Part shown: positions 27,714-63,133 of the stretch, piece after piece
How positions within the stretch are numbered: position 1 is the stretch's first letter
Layout: each line of letters starts with the position of its first letter
Source: Methanobacteriota archaeon
GTDB lineage: Archaea > Halobacteriota > Bog-38 > Methanoflorentales > Methanoflorentaceae
DNA length: 64,000 bases
NCBI GenBank assembly: GCA_963701995.1
Contig: OY969693.1
Location: forward strand, 743,724 to 807,723
Direction: 5' to 3'
The notes under the pieces: generated by a model
Told to the model about the DNA's origin: nothing
The model's database searches: none
The model's input: the letters and a program-made list of their open reading frames with translations, nothing else
Program-made: the position numbers and the translations under genes

Positions 27714-27857
27714 TTAAGCAAGCTTCAAAGGGTAAATGGCCACTGGGCTAGTCTCTGATGTAGCGCGGACGGCGTACTCCTCACAATACGAAACGCCCTC
27801 CCTATCGCCACGCTGCTTACAATGGGCGTACTTTTCGCACCTTTGGCAGTTCATCAT
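27714..27857 (-). CDS. Cys-rich mini-ORF (47 aa) inside repeat family R3
   Basis: MMNCQRCEKYAHCKQRGDREGVSYCEEY...; similar mini-ORFs at 32220-32327 and 31232-31303; coding status uncertain. Confidence 0.2.
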   Translation of the reverse strand: MMNCQRCEKYAHCKQRGDREGVSYCEEYAVRATSETSPVAIYPLKLA

Positions 27858-28070
27858 ATTTGCATTTCATGAATGGCAGAGTAAAGAAGCCTATCCGCGC
27901 GGGGGGAAACTAACCGGGCCAGAAATATCCGGCGATTTGTTCCTCCAACGCGCTTTGCATGTTATGTCTCCATGTGCGTAAGGGTCGCTCGCAAATTCAC
28001 CATCTAGTCGGGTAGGAAATCGTCAAAAGCCCTAATCTGCTTGCCATTGGAGGGCGCATAGACGTTATCC
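27761..28070. repeat. dispersed repeat family R3, copy 1 (about 310 bp)
   Basis: About 80-85% identical to 32234-32530; its 3' half recurs inverted at 58909-59045. Confidence 0.6.
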
Positions 28071-29977: not shown

Positions 29978-30057
29978 GCGCACTCACTACGCTAGGTCAA
30001 GGTGTCCAAGAATTACGACAGCCGCCCCCTTTGCTTGGATTTAATGTTGAATTGCTA
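29978..30057. repeat. 80-bp direct repeat, left copy, flanking the gene at 30172-30915
   Basis: GCGCACTCACTACGCTAGGTC...TTTAATGTTGAATTGCTA; about 88% identical to 30923-31002. Confidence 0.6.
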
Positions 30058-30171
30058 GAGGAAAACCCCATATGCCTCCTTACTTGTTGCCCAAAAACCT
30101 ACTTACTGCACATGCAAAATTACTGTGTTGGTTTTGCGGAGCGTGTTTCTCCTTCGTGATCTGTTTTTTCC

Positions 30172-30922: not shown

Positions 30923-31002
30923 GCGCACTCACTACGCTAGGTCGAGGTGTCCAAAAATTACGACAGCCTTCCCGCTTGCATGAATTTAATGTTGAATTGC
31001 TA
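30923..31002. repeat. 80-bp direct repeat, right copy
   Basis: Matches 29978-30057 in the same orientation. Confidence 0.6.
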
Positions 31003-31459
31003 ACGGGAATACGCCTATACGGTGGCCTAATTAAGGCACAAGCTAATTCAAGGCGTCGGTTTTGGTAGCAGAGCCACGAGGCGACAGAGCGCTGCGAGGG
31101 AAGCCGAGGGGCGTAGCGGTCTCTGTGTGCCGGAATACTTGGAATATTTGGAAGCTATAAAAAGGAGTTTTACTAGTTTTACCTCGCACTCAGCGGTCTT
31201 TCAAGCTTGCTGTTTACTGATCGGAATTTTCTTATTCTTTGTCCGCACAGAGGGGGTAAAATTGCCAACAGGCGTACTTCTCGCACCCTAGACAGCTCAT
31301 CATGTTAGTCTCTTTGGGCAGCAGCGGAAAGCACGTTACCGCGTCGCGAAAATAACTAGGTCGCCGATTTTTGGGTTTTTTCGTATGTGCGCCATACCGA
31401 AAGCTTTATTGTCGCTGCTACTGCGTTATTTGGCGTTTAGTGACGATTGATAACGACCG

Positions 31460-32233: not shown

Positions 32234-32530
32234 AGCGCGGACGGCGATATTCTTCGCAATACGGAACGTGCTCCCTATCGCCACGCAACCTACAATGGGC
32301 GTACTTCTCGCACCTTTGGCAGTTCATCACGGGCGCATTTCATGAGTGTAGCGTAAAGAGGGCTATCCACGCGGTGGGAAACTAACCGTCGCCAGGAATA
32401 CCAAAGTCAGCGCATCGGCGATTTATTCCTCCAACGCGCTTTGCATGCCATGTCTCATGTGTGTAGAGGTCGCTCCCAAATTCACCACCTAGACGGGCAG
32501 GAAATCGTCAAAAGCCGTAATCTGCTTGGG
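32234..32530. repeat. dispersed repeat family R3, copy 2
   Basis: Aligns with 27761-28070 in the same orientation; contains the mini-ORF MNCQRCEKYAHCRLRGDREHVPYCEEY on the minus strand (32220-32327). Confidence 0.6.
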
Positions 32531-42185: not shown

Positions 42186-42345
42186 TCGCTAGAAGCAACG
42201 GCAATATTTGGAAATGACCAGAACCTAATAAACGTTCTTCCCCCGTTCCTGTTTGGGCTTCTTTTCTTGACTATCATTGTAGGATTTGCGTTCGACCTTG
42301 AACTGACAAGTGCCGAAGGACTATCTAACGTCAGAATAAGCGGAT

Positions 42346-42390
42346 GACTAGCGCCAAAAAGCCTCAAAAGTACAAGCTTTATCCTGCGAA
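42346..42390. repeat. short dispersed repeat R5 (45 bp), copy 1
   Basis: GACTAGCGCCAAAAAGCCTCAAAAGTACAAGCTTTATCCTGCGAA; about 87% identical to 55202-55246. Confidence 0.5.
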
Positions 42391-43347: not shown

Positions 43348-43720
43348 CTTTTCTCTCCGTGAAATGACGAACAGTTATATTTTCTTTACACGATCTCTAA
43401 TTCGTTAATTCGACGTTTTGCTAGAGCCAAAACGTTGAAATCGCGTTCGCTGATTTTTGTCGTTGCTTGAACATACCAAGCCCAATTTTATTTACATCTT
43501 TTCCGCTGAAAGCGTGCAAGATGATCGCCGCCGACCGTGTCGGCATTGTAGTCACCGAGGAGCGTTCCGCCAGGTGAGACCAAATGATATGCAGGCCGCG
43601 ACGTTTTGGGCCGCCTGCAGCCCGGATCATCAGCACTGGCTGTCCCTGTCCGCGCACTTCGAAATATATTTGAGAATTGCGTTCTGCGTCGTCTTAAAGG
43701 CTTTAATACGCTAAATTTGT

Positions 43721-43967
43721 CGTCTCAAGGGAAACCGCCGTAACGTACTAAATTTGTAATAAAGCTTCAAATAGGTTTTTTGGTTATACTATTGTTGCCT
43801 CGGTTTAGCATTTCTAAGGCTGTGAAACCGCTCCGGTTCCATGGGTCGATGCTTGGTCCAAATAAGTTCGTGTGACTTTTTTAGAAGTACGCGGGGTGGT
43901 TAACAGCCTTAGTTGCCTCTTGTTCTTCTTTCAACACCTAAACTCGCAGCTTACGATCATCGTAAGA
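43721..43967. repeat. repeat family R2, copy 1 (about 245 bp) directly upstream of the small-protein leader
   Basis: About 95% identical to 60127-60370; no frame-conserved ORF between copies; contains a 10-bp inverted repeat pair (43814-43829 and 43898-43912). Confidence 0.65.
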
Positions 43968-44107
43968 GTGCGGCCATTTACCTATTGAAGCTTGCTAAGT
44001 GCGCATAGATAGGAATAACGGGCGGTTTGACGCTATTATTGACGTCGAAAAAAGCGATCACGCTTAATGTCATGTGTTCATGTAAAAACACCGACCAGGA
44101 GGGAAAG

Positions 44108-44483
44108 GTGATTGAGAAGGGATTAATCTTAACGGGCAGCGACGCGGAGTTATTGAGCCAGGCGCTTGCGGAAGTCAAAACAAAAGTCTCTGAAGAGTCC
44201 GATGCTAGTTTAGATGATACTCAAGCACTGGATGCACTCGTTTCGTGTATTAGAAATGGGGAAAAAGAAGGACAGCAGAAAGAAGGACAGCAAGCGTCGT
44301 AGCCTCTTACGCAAGCGCCTTATCTTGGGCACGCTTCTCGATAGGCAAGGCCGCGCGGATGGAAAGAAACGCATACACTTCATCCAGAGCCCGGTGTCCT
44401 TGATTCTCGCACATTTCTTCTATTTTGGCCGTGCGAGCTCACTAAGTCCTCCTTTTTTTCAGCTGCGGCAAACCGCTAGATAA
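44108..44483 (+). pseudogene. small-protein paralog B, frameshifted
   Basis: GTG start after AGGAGGG; the first 64 codons match paralogs A and C, then TAG at 44300-44302, while the conserved C-terminal segment (LRKRLILGTLLDRQGRADG) continues in another frame. Confidence 0.4.
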
Positions 44484-51339: not shown

Positions 51340-51831
51340 ACGGTTGCAATTTGGAGCGCGATTCGTCGAGGTGTAGCAGGACCAAGAAATCAGTCCACAA
51401 ATCGACAAAAATTCAACCTCAGACCGTCAAAAGTGGGGGCTCTGGGCCAGGAGGGAGCCAGCGTGACAGCCCATGGCCCAGACGATCTGCTTCACCACTG
51501 CCCCCCAAAGGAGATAATACGTGGTGTTGCGGCACTAAAGACCCGCGAAGTAGCATAAACGTTTCCGGTGTTTGATGACGACTGGCGCAAAAACGCGTGC
51601 CGGGGCGAATGAAACACACGGAGATCCGCTCGGTCGAGGCATAAGGCGCTGCTATGAGTATGAGGTCAAACGCGTGAGGTGTCACGTCAACAGAACCTAC
51701 ATCTCTCCTGCAGCGGCCTTACGCGCGTTTACCAGTATTTTCTTTCCATATAAACGTAGGGAGCTCAGAGCGGGCGATCTCTTAAAAAATAACGCTCCAA
51801 AGCATTGTAAAACCTGCAATGGCTCCGAAAA
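51340..51831. repeat. composite repeat (degenerate R3 3' part + R4), copy 1
   Basis: 51397-51831 aligns with 59041-59526 at about 80% identity with indels; reading frames are not conserved between copies. Confidence 0.55.
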
Positions 51832-52562
51832 CACTGGTGCAAAATTGACGAGAGATTATGCGAACGGTCCGGTCTCGTCGCTGATGCTTAGTGGTCAGCA
51901 TCCGTTTGTTTCGAGCCGTGGCTCCGGAACCATCTAATGATACACTTGATATAGAGATGCTGATAAGAAGGTCACGCGATAAAGCGACAAAAGACTTTTT
52001 GTCGCCATCATACTAGTTTACGGAGAAAATTCGGGCTGATATCGGATGACCCAAGCCTGCCGGCCGTCCATGCAATGAACAAGTCAGCGATGGTGCTAAT
52101 GTCTGTGCGAGGTGAGGTGCGTTGGACGATAGCTTGCGCGACGCCGAAATTGCGTTGGATCTAGATAAGAACATCTGTCCGGCATGTGGCGTGGCGTATA
52201 CTGAAGAGACGAAGTTCTGTCAGAACTGCGGCAAAAGACTCGAGGTCGCCCCCGCTAAACGAGAGAGAAAATTTCTGCTCTGGCTGCGGCGCCTATTACG
52301 TCGAACACGCTGAAATTTGCCGCAGCTACAGAAAAGCATTTGCGCCTGCGCCTCGAGAAATCGGCCTACGTGCAAACGGTGAATTGGAAGATTGGCGCTT
52401 ATGCCACCTTATAACGATCCTTAAACCTGCACCACCATTTAAGTGTGAAAAAATGCAAAAATGGAGGGGGCTCCCGACAAAAAAATGGGAAATGCGTATT
52501 TACATCAATCAGAATGTTTTTTTGGCGCGCTCTCAAGCGCGTCGACAAGGAGTTGAAATACA

Positions 52563-55063: not shown

Positions 55064-55201
55064 CGTCACCCGTCCTTTGCCGCGTTCATAGCTCGCCTAC
55101 TCAAGGCCACAATGACCTGTTGCGCGATACTACTGGCACGCATCATCAGCTCAACCAGTTGGCGAAGCGGAGTCCTTATTGTATCCTCTCAGCTGTCTCG
55201 T

Positions 55202-55246
55202 GACTAGCGCCAAAACGCCTCAAAATTAGAAGCTTTAGCCTGCGAA
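55202..55246. repeat. short dispersed repeat R5, copy 2
   Basis: Matches 42346-42390. Confidence 0.5.
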
Positions 55247-56887: not shown

Positions 56888-57000
56888 ACCATTTACCCTT
56901 TGAAGCTTGTTTAGAGCATGCCTCAAAGAATAACGGCCATTTTAACGCTAATATTGGCTCAGAAAAAAGCGATCGTGAATTACGCTTCTTGGGAATAGAA
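56888..57000. repeat. solo copy of the small-protein leader (no downstream paralog gene)
   Basis: GACCATTTACCCTTTGAAGCTTG...AACGGCCATTTTAACGCTAATATT aligns with the leaders at 27602-27747, 43968-44107 and 60371-60515. Confidence 0.5.
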
Positions 57001-58908: not shown

Positions 58909-59526
58909 TGGTTAACGCCTGTGCGCTCTCCAATGGCAAGCAGATCACGCATTTTGACCTTGGCCTGCTTGTCTAGGTGGTGAATTTGGGAGCGACCCCT
59001 ACACACACGGGAGATATACCATGCAAAGCGCGTTGGAGGAACAAATCGACCAAAATTCAACCTCAGACCGTCAAAACTGGGGGCTCTGGGCCAGGAGTGA
59101 CAGCTCATGACCCAAAGCGATTTGCTTCACCACTGCCACCTAAGGAGATAATCCGTGGTGTTGCAGAAGGCAAAGACTCATGAAGCAGCATAAATGTTTC
59201 CGACATTTGGTAACGAACGCAAAAACGTGCGCTGCAGGGGGGGATTACACAAGATTCGGGCGCCGTGGGGAGCATAAGGCGCTGATGAACATGAGGTCAA
59301 GCGCGTGCATCATCACGTAGACCGTCTGTGGCAGGCACCTCGAAGCGACGCCAGTCGGGTCAAGCGTGCGGCATCACGTAAAGGAACCTACATCTCCCGC
59401 TACAGCGCCTTATGCGCGTTTTTCTGGTTATTTCCTTTGAATATAAACGTGGGTAGCTCCGAGCGGGCGCTCTTTTGAAAAATAACGCTCTAAAGCGATT
59501 TAATACCTGCAATGGCTCCGAAAAAA
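58909..59526. repeat. composite repeat (inverted R3 3' part + R4), copy 2
   Basis: 58909-59045 is the reverse complement of the R3 3' half; 59041-59526 aligns with 51397-51831 and has an internal duplication of about 50 nt. Confidence 0.55.
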
Positions 59527-59710
59527 CGGTAGAGCTTTAAGGAGAGAATAAGCGAATGTGCTATACCAACGACCGGTTAGTTCTACCACGCGCATAGCCC
59601 CCTATGCAACTTTTTGCCAATGTTTTCTTTGGAAGCTTCAAGTAGTACAAGGGTTTGTCACAAATGTTTAAGTCGCCCACTGTTAGAGCATTCAACAAGG
59701 AGATGACGCA

Positions 59711-60010: not shown

Positions 60011-60126
60011 TAACTGCTCTTTTTATCAGCTGCCGCTCACGAGTAGGCCAGCAAAACGAACTTTGGAAGTGCCGGAGCCGAGCTTGCGTTCAAGGCGTGC
60101 ACAGATCCGAATCTATGCTAACTTAT

Positions 60127-60370
60127 CGTCTCGAGGGAAACCGCCGTAACCTACTAAATTTGTAATAAAGCTTCAAATAGGTTTTTTGGTTATACTATTG
60201 TTGCCTCGGTTAGCATTTCTAAGGCTGTGAAACCGCTCCGGGCATGGGCCGATGCTTGGTCCAAATAAGTCCGTGTGACTTTTTTAGAAGTACGCGGGGT
60301 GGTTAACAGCCTTAGTTGCCTCTTGTTCTTTTTTTAACACCTAAACTCGCAGCTTACGGTCAGCGTCAGG
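60127..60370. repeat. repeat family R2, copy 2
   Basis: About 95% identical to 43721-43967 and, like it, placed directly 5' of the conserved leader. Confidence 0.65.
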
Positions 60371-60515
60371 GTGCGGCCATTTACCTTTTGAAGCTTGCTT
60401 AACGCTCTTCGCGGTGAATAACGGCCATTTTGACGCTAATATCAGCGTCAGAACAAAGCGATCATGCATTATGTAAGGTGGCGCACACAAAAAGTACCGA
60501 TAAAGGAGGAAAAAA

Positions 60516-61441: not shown

Positions 61442-62248
61442 TCACACTAAATCTTTAAGCGCATCCAACAAAGCCTTTCGCTCGACTGAGCCCGTCGGAG
61501 ATATGTAGAAATCAACGCCACGACCTCTTCCACGCCCTTTTCGTTCAACTTCAACATAACCGTACAACTCCAATTCAGCAGTGAGTTCGGAAAGGGTCTT
61601 GTGCGAGACCTGTTCACGTCCGTTAAGCCTCATAATATTGTTAAATTCCCTATAAACCTCAGTTGGCGACTGCTTTTCCTCTTTACTGTATACGGTTTCT
61701 AGCAACACCTTCTGATGTGGTGAGAGACGTACCACTTCTCTGCGTAACAACGACACTTCTGCAAGTCGTTCCGCACGACGCACATCCTCTTCTGCAACAG
61801 TCGTTCGCCCTTCTTCTTCACAAAGGTCAGCAGCAGTTGATAGCAAATCAAGCGCATATCGGGCATCGCCGTTTCTCTGTGCCGCTAATGCAGCGCATAA
61901 CGGAATCACTTCATCGCTCAGCGCATTCGGATAAAACGCCTGTTCAACGCGATACTCCAGAATATCCCTTAACTGAGGCGCGTCATAAGCCGGAAAAGTA
62001 ACATCTACATATACATACGATGACTGGTCACGGGCGTCGGTGATTAGTGTAGGGAAGTCATATTTGTTCGTGATCCCGATAAGACAGATGTTAGAATCTC
62101 GCGTGAACTTGTAGATGGGGCTATATTCGTCTTTTCTGTTCTTAATGAGCATTTTGTCTATCTCATCGAGAATAATGATCGCAATATTCCCTTTGACCTT
62201 CTGTTCGATTTTTGTCCAGTACTCGTTAGTTTTAACCGGTTGCTTGTT
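61442..62248 (-). pseudogene. orc1: Orc1/Cdc6 replication-initiator gene remnant lacking the Walker A region
   Basis: Open frame includes Walker B IAIIILDEID, FPAYDAPQLRDILEYRVEQAF, CAALAAQRNGDARYALDLL and the C-terminal winged helix; upstream it stops at TGA (62249-62251), the preceding PYRV-like segment is in another frame, and no GxxGxGKT motif is found. Confidence 0.7.
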
Positions 62249-62409: not shown

Positions 62410-62612
62410 GCGGTCGCAGCTACGCGGTTTAGCGCTCTGGCCAGCCGGATTGCGAGAGCAAGAAGTGAGTCAAGCTGCTCCTGCTGAGAATCGCACGGAT
62501 GCCATAGCGCGTTTATCTCTTCCAGGCTATTAAGGCGGTGCGAGGCGTGCATCTCATCGTCAGCAATAGCCTCGCGTGTCGTTTCAATATCGGCGTCAGT
62601 GTCGGTCATCAT
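62394..62612 (-). CDS. small acidic hypothetical protein
   Basis: 72-aa ORF whose start overlaps the stop of the upstream surface-protein gene by 4 nt (ATGA). Confidence 0.35.
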   Translation of the reverse strand: MMTDTDADIETTREAIADDEMHASHRLNSLEEINALWHPCDSQQEQLDSLLALAIRLARALNRVAATADSNN

Positions 62613-63133
62613 TTTCCCCTCAGCAAGATAACATAAACCGCTCCAATAGCCACGAGCGCAAAGACTCCAAAAGCCCCAGCAATGAGAGGCACGTCTGCGC
62701 CTTGCGGTGGTGCGGGTGCATTGCCTTGGACTGTGTAAGTGATGTTAGCGCTTAGCGCTGGGCGCGCTGCCGATGTCGTATTAACGAGCATGCTTGAGCT
62801 AAAATTGCCGTCCTTGGCGTCGCTCGGTACGTCAAGCCTCACGGCCACCGTTACGTTTGAGTTTGGAGCGATTGCCACGCTTGCTGGGCTCGCGTTTAGC
62901 TGTCCGCTCGTATTCGTAACATTGGTGAAGGTGATAGAATAAGCGAGCGTCGAATTGCCGCCGGTGTTGTAGAGTATGACGTCTCGCTCTGCGCTACCTC
63001 CGCGTCCGACCGTGCCGAAATCAATACGGACTGATGAAACGCCTATCCCTACTTGTGCATTAATTAAAGCACTCACTACAATAAGAAAAACAAAGAAAAG
63101 AGGCGTTAAGCATCGTCTCACTCTAAAACTCAT
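62609..63133 (-). CDS. cell-surface protein with signal peptide, many N-glycosylation sequons and C-terminal membrane anchor
   Basis: 174 aa; N-terminal hydrophobic signal, at least eight NxS/T sequons, C-terminal hydrophobic helix ending LRGK (PGF-CTERM-like). Confidence 0.5.
   Translation of the reverse strand: MSFRVRRCLTPLFFVFLIVVSALINAQVGIGVSSVRIDFGTVGRGGSAERDVILYNTGGNSTLAYSITFTNVTNTSGQLNASPASVAIAPNSNVTVAVRLDVPSDAKDGNFSSSMLVNTTSAARPALSANITYTVQGNAPAPPQGADVPLIAGAFGVFALVAIGAVYVILLRGK

What the first reader, a model, noticed from the sequence alone, without database searches (positions are those of the whole stretch)
43721..43967. Near-identical 245-bp non-coding module (R2) directly upstream of two of the three small-protein copies
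43721-43967 and 60127-60370 are about 95% identical, yet the few indels break every reading frame, so the conservation is at nucleotide level. Both copies abut the leader in the same orientation. The module contains a T-run and a 10-bp inverted repeat pair (43814-43829 and 43898-43912) that could close a roughly 70-nt structured domain. It may be a structured non-coding RNA, a long 5' UTR element, or the body of a small non-autonomous mobile element.
Basis: seen in the sequence. Interest (0 to 1): 0.6.

Follow-up and report, generated by a model that had tools for sequence, protein, structure and literature searches.

The report
Duplicated candidate archaeal small-RNA gene
The 245-bp repeat is real: it is two copies of a conserved non-coding unit (promoter-like block, about 100-nt RNA hairpin, T-rich tail) found once or twice per genome in uncultured peat archaea, most likely an undescribed small RNA gene, not a leader of the small-protein gene or a multiplying mobile element.

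Summary
Observation confirmed. 43721-43967 and 60127-60370 are 94.3% identical, with stop codons in all six frames. The adjoining leader is 65% identical, the small-protein gene 79%, and the upstream flank is unrelated.

The window comes from an uncultured Halobacteriota archaeon. R2 is not private to it. One exact-word scan found 50 metagenome loci (40 distinct sequences, about 20 flanking contexts). A second scan found 6 copies in 5 archaeal MAGs. There is one copy per locus and 1-2 per genome.

The shared core is 43738-43949. It consists of:
- a conserved AT-rich block;
- a variable spacer with a TTTTAGCTA TATA-like motif;
- a hairpin of about 100 nt (z -4 to -6);
- usually a T5-7 run.

Variation inside the main helix is almost all G·U to G-C or A-U. 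G·U cells outnumber A·C cells 180 to 24, so the + strand carries the structure. No pair shows a double compensatory change.

Neighbouring genes can be divergent or convergent, so R2 cannot be a UTR in general. It matches no Rfam family and has no terminal inverted repeats, no target-site duplication and no recombinase nearby.

Best reading (0.5): a lineage-specific small RNA gene, recently copied within this window. Transcription is untested.

The parts
43714..43996 (+). Copy A of the recently duplicated tract: R2 plus the first ~23 nt of the leader. 94% identical to 60120-60399.
43729..43739 (+). GGGAAACCGCC. This is a remnant of the spacer that in many other genomes separates a 36-aa zinc-finger mini-ORF from R2. 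Homology with other family members starts here, around 43727.
43740..43775 (+). Conserved AT-rich upstream block GTAACGTACTAAATTTGTAATAAAGCTTCAAATAGG, at least 90% conserved across the family. Candidate BRE/upstream promoter element.
   Evidence: alignment A2. AATAGG followed by a T-rich box resembles the tRNA-Val promoter of L005.
43776..43796 (+). Variable spacer holding a TATA-like box (family consensus TTTTAGCTATA; here TTTTTTGGTTATA).
   Evidence: One search shows the variability. The same TTTTAGCTA motif sits 42-43 nt before the start codon of an unrelated small gene in related loci.
43797..43813 (+). Conserved GCCTCGGTTTAGCATTT. The predicted transcription start lies somewhere in 43797-43808; this is inferred, not shown.
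43814..43912 (+). Core hairpin. P1 pairs 43814-43823 with 43903-43912. P2 pairs 43827-43835 with 43892-43900. Inner hairpin P3 is 43842-43860, with the invariant loop GAUGCUU. P4 is about 43870-43891 and contains the T6 run at 43877-82.
   Evidence: Folds. Pair counts. G·U versus A·C strand asymmetry.
43913..43931 (+). Pyrimidine-rich tail TTGCCTCTTGTTCTTCTTT. This is the position of a T5-7 run in 14 of 25 representative family members. Copy A has no run of 5 or more T.
43932..43973 (+). Conserved tail CAACACCTAAACTCGCAG plus the palindrome CTTACGAT-C-ATCGTAAG (43950-43966). It is shared by a subset of family members. Many homology breakpoints between related loci fall in or just after it.
60120..60399 (+). 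Copy B of the duplicated tract. R2 proper is 60120-60376.
60146..60181 (+). Copy B: conserved AT-rich upstream block.
60219..60315 (+). Copy B: core hairpin. P1 pairs 60219-60228 with 60306-60315. P2 pairs 60232-60240 with 60295-60303. Folding z = -6.1.
60329..60335 (+). Copy B: T7 run 14 nt after the hairpin. Candidate archaeal oligo-T terminator.

Best explanation
R2 is a copy of a lineage-specific small non-coding RNA gene of uncultured peat and wetland Halobacteriota archaea.

The unit is self-contained:
- a conserved AT-rich upstream block plus a TATA-like box;
- an inferred start at about 43797-43808;
- an RNA of about 105-135 nt whose body is a long hairpin (P1+P2, about 20 bp) capped by two small hairpins, with the invariant loop segment GUCGAUGCUUGG;
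- in most members, an oligo-T stop 10-20 nt after the hairpin.

Such an RNA would most likely act in trans, as a protein-binding or regulatory RNA through its invariant apical loops. No target was identified.

The two window copies are 94% identical because a tract of about 280 bp was copied recently. The likely route is gene conversion or duplication seeded by the homologous leader, placing the tract in front of two older, more diverged leader plus small-protein paralogues.

Shown: the repeat, the family, its boundaries, the strand-biased structure and the independence from neighbouring genes. Inferred: the promoter, the start site, the terminator and the trans-acting function. Not testable here: transcription.
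For: Family and copy number:
- 50 metagenome loci (40 distinct sequences) and 6 copies in 5 species-representative MAGs carry R2 at 72-93% identity.
- The shared core runs from about -76 to +135 around position 43814.
- There is one copy per locus. The complete 2.3-Mb chromosome OY970393.1 has one exact-pattern match, and one MAG has two.

Layout:
- It reads conserved block, variable spacer, conserved RNA.
- The TATA-like TTTTAGCTA also sits at a fixed 42-43 nt before an unrelated gene's start codon.
- The block resembles a tRNA promoter from the same lineage.

Structure:
- Folding z-scores are -4.1 to -6.1. The + strand is 6-15 kcal/mol more stable than the minus strand.
- The main helix is paired in 97.2% of cells. 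9 of 20 pairs vary on one side only while keeping the pair.
- G·U cells number 180 against 24 A·C cells, so the structure is favoured on the + strand.
- The 5' arm is identical in all 6 copies found by a pattern that left CTAAGGCT unconstrained.

Terminator: a T5+ run follows the hairpin in 14 of 25 representatives, against 8.8% background, including tails that are not homologous to each other.

Independence from neighbours:
- The upstream gene is divergent in L131 (C_GCAxxG_C_C protein).
- The downstream gene is convergent in L028 and L140 (cupredoxin).
- One subtype lies in core-genome contexts next to tbp, tfe and guaA.

Not coding.
Against: - No expression data exist for this region.
- No pair of the main helix shows a change on both sides. 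The covariation score beats shuffles only marginally (7 of 500), a level that related sequences can reach without any structure.
- The family is too similar for a real covariation test, and the first search pattern fixed 18 nt of the 5' arm.
- In orthologous loci R2 is only slightly more conserved than its upstream flank: 94-96% against 91%.
- An internal T4-T6 run inside the hairpin could itself stop archaeal transcription.
- Sequence after the T-run (CAACACCTAAACTC) is also conserved, which a terminator model does not explain.
- Copy A lacks the T-run.
- G·T pairs are also tolerated in folded single-stranded DNA, so the strand bias does not strictly prove an RNA.
Confidence: 0.5

Rival explanations
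1. R2 is a cis-acting structured element inside a small-gene cassette transcript. It would be an intercistronic, 3'-UTR or 5'-UTR hairpin between the 36-aa zinc-finger mini-ORF and the leader plus small-protein gene. It would control stability, processing or termination of those mRNAs and would not be made as an independent RNA.
For: - In many loci R2 starts about 50 nt after the stop codon of the zinc-finger mini-ORF, with no T-run in between.
- In the window and in L033, L074 and L031 it is followed directly by the leader.
- Small-protein homologues lie within 0.1-3.5 kb of R2 in several contexts.
Against: - R2 occurs without either neighbour next to tbp, tfe and guaA.
- It occurs with a divergent upstream gene or a convergent downstream gene.
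- The arrangement zinc-finger ORF, leader, small protein commonly exists without R2: window copy 3 and L001-L003, the latter protein being seen on 94 contigs.
- R2 RNA shows no complementarity to the leader beyond shuffled controls.
Confidence: 0.2
2. R2 is a DNA-level recombination or mobility module: the hairpin and the tail palindrome would be a site where small-gene cassettes are exchanged (integron attC- or att-like), or R2 would be a relic of a small mobile element. The sequence conservation would then reflect spread, not RNA function.
For: - Orthologous loci keep more than 1 kb of upstream synteny but become unrelated at +104 to +200, right after R2.
- The same downstream modules are combined with different upstream contexts.
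- The site between the zinc-finger ORF and the leader exists in filled and empty forms.
- The spacer and tail are identical between the two window copies, which points to recent copying and not to selection.
- The tail palindrome keeps its symmetry through a double change in L028: CTTACGAT/ATCGTAAG becomes CTTATGAT/ATCATAAG.
Against: - Breakpoints are scattered (+45, +70, +104, +131, +156-177, +201, +317), not at one crossover point.
- There is no terminal inverted repeat or target-site duplication.
- The exact-pattern search finds 1-2 copies per genome.
- There are no hits in IMG/VR, phage or plasmid collections.
- No integrase or transposase domain was found in the 20-64 kb ORFs scanned or among the neighbours in related loci that were examined, by Pfam or by eye.
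- The attC core GTTRRRY is absent; the sequence here is GTTAACA.
Confidence: 0.15
3. R2 is simply neutral intergenic DNA carried along in a recent segmental duplication. The hairpin would be fortuitous.
For: The two window copies are nearly identical even in family-variable segments such as the spacer and the tail.
Against: - The same 210-nt core is retained at 72-93% identity in about 20 unrelated flanking contexts and at least 6 species-level genomes, while everything around it is replaced.
- Conservation is block-wise, with near-invariant loops.
- Hairpin z-scores are -4 to -6 in every subtype tested.
Confidence: 0.05

Closest known systems
Intergenic small RNAs of methanogens and haloarchaea with their own promoter (for example the Methanosarcina mazei and Haloferax volcanii sRNAs; comparison from general knowledge)
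   Same: Short intergenic unit. AT-rich BRE/TATA-like element about 25-30 nt before the structured part. Stable hairpin. Oligo-T after it. Low copy number. Lineage-restricted.
   Different: No sequence or structure match to any Rfam 15 family. No expression evidence and no identified target. Unusually high nucleotide conservation, including about 35 nt upstream of the TATA-like box.
MITEs and other small non-autonomous transposable elements of archaea
   Same: About 250 bp, non-coding, contains a long inverted repeat, and is found in several unrelated genomic contexts.
   Different: The inverted repeat is internal, not terminal. There are no target-site duplications and the ends are ragged. 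The exact-pattern search finds 1-2 copies per genome. No parent transposase was seen.
Integron attC sites and Vibrio cholerae repeats (VCR)
   Same: Imperfect inverted repeat of about 100 nt, conserved in sequence, strand-biased in its folding, and located where conserved DNA meets exchangeable small-gene modules.
   Different: No integrase was seen among the scanned ORFs. There are no R''/R' core motifs (RYYYAAC/GTTRRRY). It does not occur in arrays: one copy per locus, and 16 kb apart in the window. Junction positions are scattered.
Cis-regulatory 5' leaders and riboswitch-like elements
   Same: In this window it lies upstream of, and co-oriented with, a gene that has a long conserved leader.
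   Different: There is no constant downstream gene. Some copies face a convergent gene. No alternative terminator/antiterminator pairing is conserved.

Membership tests
Any Rfam 15 RNA family | Covariance-model score at or above the family's gathering threshold | tested here: not met
   No match for R2 at gathering thresholds in the whole window or in 15 related loci; the only hit there was an unrelated tRNA. An E-value scan of 43650-44150 gave only chance-level hits, E of 2.9 or more, about 80 bits below threshold.
Independent archaeal small RNA gene | Own promoter (BRE/TATA about 25-30 nt upstream of the start) | tested here: inconclusive
   There is a conserved AT-rich block, a TATA-like TTTTAGCTA and a variable spacer. 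The same motif sits at a fixed distance before an unrelated gene start and resembles a tRNA promoter. No archaeal promoter model or TSS data were available.
Independent archaeal small RNA gene | Termination signal (oligo-T) shortly after the structured part | tested here: inconclusive
   A T5-7 run lies 10-20 nt after the hairpin in 14 of 25 representatives, against 8.8% background. It is present in copy B (60329-60335) and absent in copy A.
Independent archaeal small RNA gene | Secondary structure conserved with covariation | tested here: inconclusive
   The main helix is 97.2% paired and 9 of 20 pairs change on one side only. No main-helix pair changes on both sides. 7 of 500 shuffles reach the covariation score. 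G·U 180 against A·C 24.
Independent archaeal small RNA gene | Independence from flanking genes (not part of their transcripts) | tested here: met
   Divergent upstream gene in L131. Convergent downstream gene in L028 and L140. About 20 different contexts.
Independent archaeal small RNA gene | A discrete transcript is made | not testable with these tools
   No transcriptome data are accessible.
MITE / non-autonomous transposable element | Terminal inverted repeats at the element ends | tested here: not met
   The only long inverted repeat is internal (43814-26 with 43900-12). The ends carry none. Family boundaries are ragged: 5' ends from -73 to -225, 3' ends from +45 to +317.
MITE / non-autonomous transposable element | Target-site duplication flanking each copy | tested here: not met
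   No direct repeat flanks 43714-43973 or 60120-60376.
MITE / non-autonomous transposable element | Many copies per genome | tested here: not met
   One exact-pattern match in a complete 2.3-Mb chromosome, two in one MAG, two in this window, and one per locus. Diverged copies would escape an exact pattern, so this is a lower bound.
5' UTR / leader element of the small-protein gene | Constant linkage and orientation to that gene | tested here: not met
   Most R2 loci have no small-protein homologue downstream. Where one is present it can be upstream, on the opposite strand or kilobases away. Leader plus gene occurs without R2.
Integron attC site | R''/R' core motifs (RYYYAAC ... GTTRRRY) and an adjacent integron integrase | tested here: not met
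   The arms read CTGTGAAAC ... GTTAACAG, and GTTAACA violates RRR. No recombinase domain was found in the ORFs scanned between 20 and 64 kb. ORFs under 140 aa were not systematically scanned.
Small protein-coding gene | Open reading frame conserved across members | tested here: not met
   There are stops in all frames. The 20-codon ORF from 43841 loses its ATG (AAAGG, ACGGG, CTGGG) or its frame in other members.

The most novel reading that the evidence does not exclude
R2 is a recombination joint of an archaeal cassette-shuffling system. Its hairpin and tail palindrome, folded on one strand, would be the site at which small-gene modules are exchanged between loci. Those modules are the zinc-finger mini-ORF, the leader plus small protein, and the 83-aa protein with its own promoter. 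This would be functionally analogous to integron attC/VCR sites, but without a recognisable integron integrase.
Probability: 0.08. Interest if true: 0.8.

Novelty: new member of a known kind. Interest (0 to 1): 0.45.

Why it matters
If R2 is transcribed, it would add a conserved structured small RNA to a widespread but uncultured group of peatland archaea for which no regulatory RNAs are described. It has one subtype in core-genome positions, next to tbp, tfe and guaA, and another inside a rapidly reshuffled set of orphan small-protein cassettes. The family gives a defined 210-nt target for metatranscriptome mapping. It also marks junctions where strain-level genome rearrangements concentrate. 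For annotating this window, it explains the conservation at nucleotide level without any reading frame, and it separates R2 from the leader and the small-protein gene.

Tried and rejected
- **Known RNA families.** Rfam at gathering thresholds on the window and on 15 related loci found nothing relevant. An E-value scan of the region found only chance hits.
- **Phage and plasmid collections.** blastn in distant mode found no match.
- **IMG/VR.** A scan with the most conserved 18-mer found 0 hits.
- **First species-genome scan.** A 20-mer from the 3' arm found 0 hits. The source genome is evidently not a species representative in that collection.
- **Locating the source contig.** Exact look-up of the window's small protein found nothing on record.
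- **Whole-alignment RNAalifold.** Running it with truncated copies included fails to recover the long helix. A cleaned alignment was needed.
- **Antisense pairing of R2 RNA with the leader or start region.** Duplex energies are no better than for shuffled R2; the fraction of shuffles at least as good is 0.53-0.93.
- **Targets complementary to the invariant loop.** The window shows no enrichment: 10 sites against 6.5 expected, and the two best are R2 itself.
- **TnpB/IscB ωRNA-type origin.** The ORFs upstream of R2 in related loci are ordinary genes: PQQ-repeat protein, DUF1697, TBP, TFE. None is a transposase.
- **C/D box, H/ACA, K-turn, T-loop and origin-recognition-box (ORB) readings.** I inspected these motifs by eye and none is present. 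This was not a formal test.
- **Closing stem between GGGAAACCG and CGGUUU around the AT-rich block.** It is not conserved in other subtypes.
- **The 8-nt direct repeat GTTGCCTC flanking the hairpin as a target-site duplication.** It is perfect only in the two window copies.
- **tRNA genes in the window for promoter calibration.** There are none, so tRNAs of related loci were used.
- **Orphan small proteins** (94-aa, 36-aa, 83-aa, 66-aa, 140-aa). No Pfam, NCBIfam or PHROG family matches.

Full report
**Observation.**
The two segments are real. 43721-43967 and 60127-60370 align with 233 of 247 identical columns, 11 mismatches and 3 gap columns. The high-identity tract runs from 43714 to about 43996 (60120-60399; 266/283). 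To the left the flanks are unrelated (31%). To the right identity drops to 65% in the rest of the leader and 79% in the small-protein coding sequence. Every frame on both strands has stop codons.

It is part of a longer helix. The window holds exactly two R2 copies (nhmmer). A third small-protein copy (27601-27323, minus strand) and a leader fragment (56889-56974) lack R2.

**Source.**
The window is archaeal. It carries a Cdc6/Orc1 lid plus winged-helix fragment at 61442-62152. The small protein and the housekeeping enzymes match proteins of 'Halobacteriota archaeon' MAGs on a 2.1-Mb contig. Bacterial promoter and terminator logic therefore does not apply.

**R2 is a family.**
50 of those stretches are true R2 homologues (40 distinct sequences) at 72-93% identity; the rest are chance hits in unrelated organisms.

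A second, independent pattern (GTGAAACCGC, a gap, then CGATGCTTGG) found 6 copies in 5 species-representative archaeal MAGs:
- a SPRUCE bog MAG, which has two copies;
- a Stordalen 'fen_3' MAG;
- three MFD MAGs, one of them a complete 2.3-Mb chromosome with a single match.

All six keep CTAAGGCT, which that pattern left unconstrained. There is one copy per locus. R2 is absent from IMG/VR, from the phage and plasmid collections, and from Rfam.

**Anatomy.**
All-against-all comparison gives a universal core from about -76 to +104 relative to 43814. This is followed by a T-rich stretch and a conserved CAACACCTAAACTC reaching about +135. The order of parts is:
- a block conserved at 90% or more, GTAACGTACTAAATTTGTAATAAAGCTTCAAATAGG (43740-43775);
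- a variable spacer of about 20 nt with the consensus TTTTAGCTATA;
- the conserved GCCTCGGTTTAG;
- the hairpin (43814-43912);
- the T-rich tail.

The TTTTAGCTA motif recurs in related loci at a constant 42-43 nt before the start codon of an unrelated 83-aa gene. AATAGG followed by a T-rich box resembles a tRNA-Val promoter of the same lineage. I therefore read the spacer motif as a TATA box and place the start at about 43797-43808. This is an inference. A run of 5 or more T follows the hairpin within 10-20 nt in 14 of 25 representatives, against 8.8% of random 50-nt windows, and this includes mutually non-homologous tails. Copy B has T7 at 60329-35; copy A has lost it.

**Structure.**
The hairpin of about 110 nt folds with z = -4.1 (A), -6.1 (B), -5.8 (L131) and -4.9 (L014). 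The + strand is 6-15 kcal/mol more stable than the minus strand. I counted pairs on a 33-sequence alignment of complete copies (A3):
- The P1+P2 helix (20 pairs) is paired in 97.2% of cells. 9 pairs vary on one side only while staying paired (for example G·U 19 with G-C 14; U·G 19 with C-G 8 and U-A 4). No pair changes on both sides.
- For the whole structure, the covariation score is reached by 7 of 500 shuffles. That level is not decisive for related sequences.
- Over all helices, G·U cells number 180 against 24 A·C cells. The structure is therefore favoured on the + strand, the same strand as the promoter-like block and the T-run.
- The apical hairpin P3 keeps the invariant loop GAUGCUU, but in two different registers in two subtypes.

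Overall, the structure is strongly predicted and its variation is compatible with RNA, but it is not proven by covariation. The first pattern also fixed 18 nt of the 5' arm.

**Context.**
R2 is not tied to the small-protein gene. Only the window copies and L033/L083/L074 and L031 have the leader directly downstream. In L033 and L074 the same leader drives a different 66-aa ORF. Elsewhere the small-protein homologue is 0.1-3.5 kb away on either side and either strand, or absent.

Other neighbours vary:
- In L028 and L140 a cupredoxin gene converges on R2.
- In L131 a C_GCAxxG_C_C gene diverges from it.
- One subtype lies next to tbp, or between tfe and guaA.

An RNA made from R2 therefore needs its own promoter in at least some loci.

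In many loci the homology extends upstream into a 36-aa CxxC mini zinc-finger ORF (MMNCQRCEKYAHCKLRGDREGIPYCEEYRRPRYIRD) that ends about 50 nt before R2. The window copies keep only the last 11-13 nt of that spacer. The same mini-ORF lies in the window at 27857-27748 (minus strand), fused 8 nt before the leader of small-protein copy 3. A second copy lies at 32330-32229. L001-L003 show the same arrangement without R2. R2 is thus an optional module between the mini-ORF and the leader.

**Mosaic junction.**
Orthologous loci share more than 1 kb upstream of R2 at 86-100% identity, yet become unrelated between +104 and +200. The same downstream modules occur behind different upstream contexts. In pooled orthologous pairs, identities are as follows:

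| Segment | Identity |
|---|---|
| R2 promoter block | 95.9% |
| R2 RNA part | 93.6% |
| Upstream flank | 91% |

This is a modest excess. R2 persists while its surroundings are exchanged, which argues for function. It also leaves room for a DNA-level recombination role.

Against mobility:
- the breakpoints are scattered;
- there are no terminal inverted repeats or target-site duplications;
- copy number is 1-2 per genome;
- no integrase or transposase was found among the ORFs of 140 aa or more scanned between 20 and 64 kb, nor among the neighbours examined in related loci, by Pfam or by eye.

**Why the window copies are 94% identical.**
They are identical even in the family-variable spacer and tail. 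They also share 13 nt (43714-43726) that no other member has. The adjoining leader and gene are much more diverged. The simplest account is a recent copy or gene-conversion tract of about 280 bp laid over two older paralogous loci. This is an inference.

**Verdict.**
The repeat is confirmed. It is best explained as a copy pair of an undescribed, lineage-specific small RNA gene (confidence 0.5). The rivals are:
- a cis-acting element of the small-gene cassette transcripts (0.2);
- a DNA-level recombination or mobility module (0.15);
- neutral duplicated DNA (0.05).

It is a new member of a known kind, the small structured non-coding RNA gene. Transcription and function remain to be shown.

Noticed in passing
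window 27857-27748 (-) and 32330-32229 (-); L028:1722-1829, L001:2742-2849 and many other loci: A family of 36-aa CxxC mini zinc-finger ORFs (MMNCQRCEKYAHCKLRGDREGIPYCEEYRRPRYIRD). It is conserved at protein level across loci and has no Pfam, NCBIfam or PHROG family. It usually sits directly upstream of R2 or of the leader. The copy at 27857 has a C-terminal frameshift.
   Followed up: partly
window 43974-44107, 60377-60515, 27741-27602 (-), 56889-56974; L001:2859-2996; L033, L074: The 'leader' of about 135 nt is itself a conserved module: 76-80% identical across genomes, ending in GGAGG plus the start codon. It precedes different small ORFs: the 89-94-aa family here, and an unrelated 66-aa ORF in L033 and L074.
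   Followed up: partly
window 44108-44369: Small-protein copy A is frameshifted. Homology to residues 1-75 runs in one frame and ends at a stop (44300-44302). Residues 68-88 continue in another frame at 44307-44369. It is likely a pseudogene, and its R2 copy has also lost the T-run.
   Followed up: partly
L039, L021, L118, L109, L103, L014, L062 (100-330 nt downstream of R2): Another recurrent module: ACTTTCGCTCTGCTTTTAGCTAACAATTACCC, then [A/G]TGAACAACGA exactly 42-43 nt after the TTTTAGC motif. This starts an orphan protein of about 83 aa (MNNDCAEVDELIFEIADYKNDYADMAAEKLFRKCSTSWEAF...). A relative lies upstream of the zinc-finger ORF in L028.
   Followed up: partly
window 43762-43770 / 43985-43993 and 60163-60177 / 60387-60401: The R2 upstream block (AATAAAGCTTCAAATAGG) and the first bases of the leader (CCTTTTGAAGCTTGCTTA) form an inverted repeat of 9-15 nt. 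The repeat is conserved in both module families. It could be a shared regulator-binding site or chance.
   Followed up: partly
window 61442-62152 (-): A Cdc6/Orc1 ORF with only the lid and winged-helix domains. The AAA+ N-terminal part is missing. The next ORF upstream (62609-63133) is an Ig-like/DUF1573-type protein instead. This is probably a gene fragment.
   Followed up: partly
window 51397-51456 / 59041-59100; 51736-51834 / 59429-59527; 29978-30073 / 30923-31018; 42345-42390 / 55201-55246; 27775-28043 / 32248-32528: Several further pairs of 46-270-nt repeats (84-95% identical) are scattered over 27-60 kb. The last pair contains the zinc-finger mini-ORF. The others were not examined. This half of the window is a patchwork of duplicated short modules.
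   Followed up: no
L109:3438-3475 / L146:7171-7208; L080:6249-6310: Some R2 members carry short tandem duplications at the 5' edge of the conserved block: AACATACTAAGT three times in L109 and L146, and AAATTTGTAATATAGATTCAA twice in L080. L080, L017-type and L086 copies are truncated after +20 or +70.
   Followed up: no
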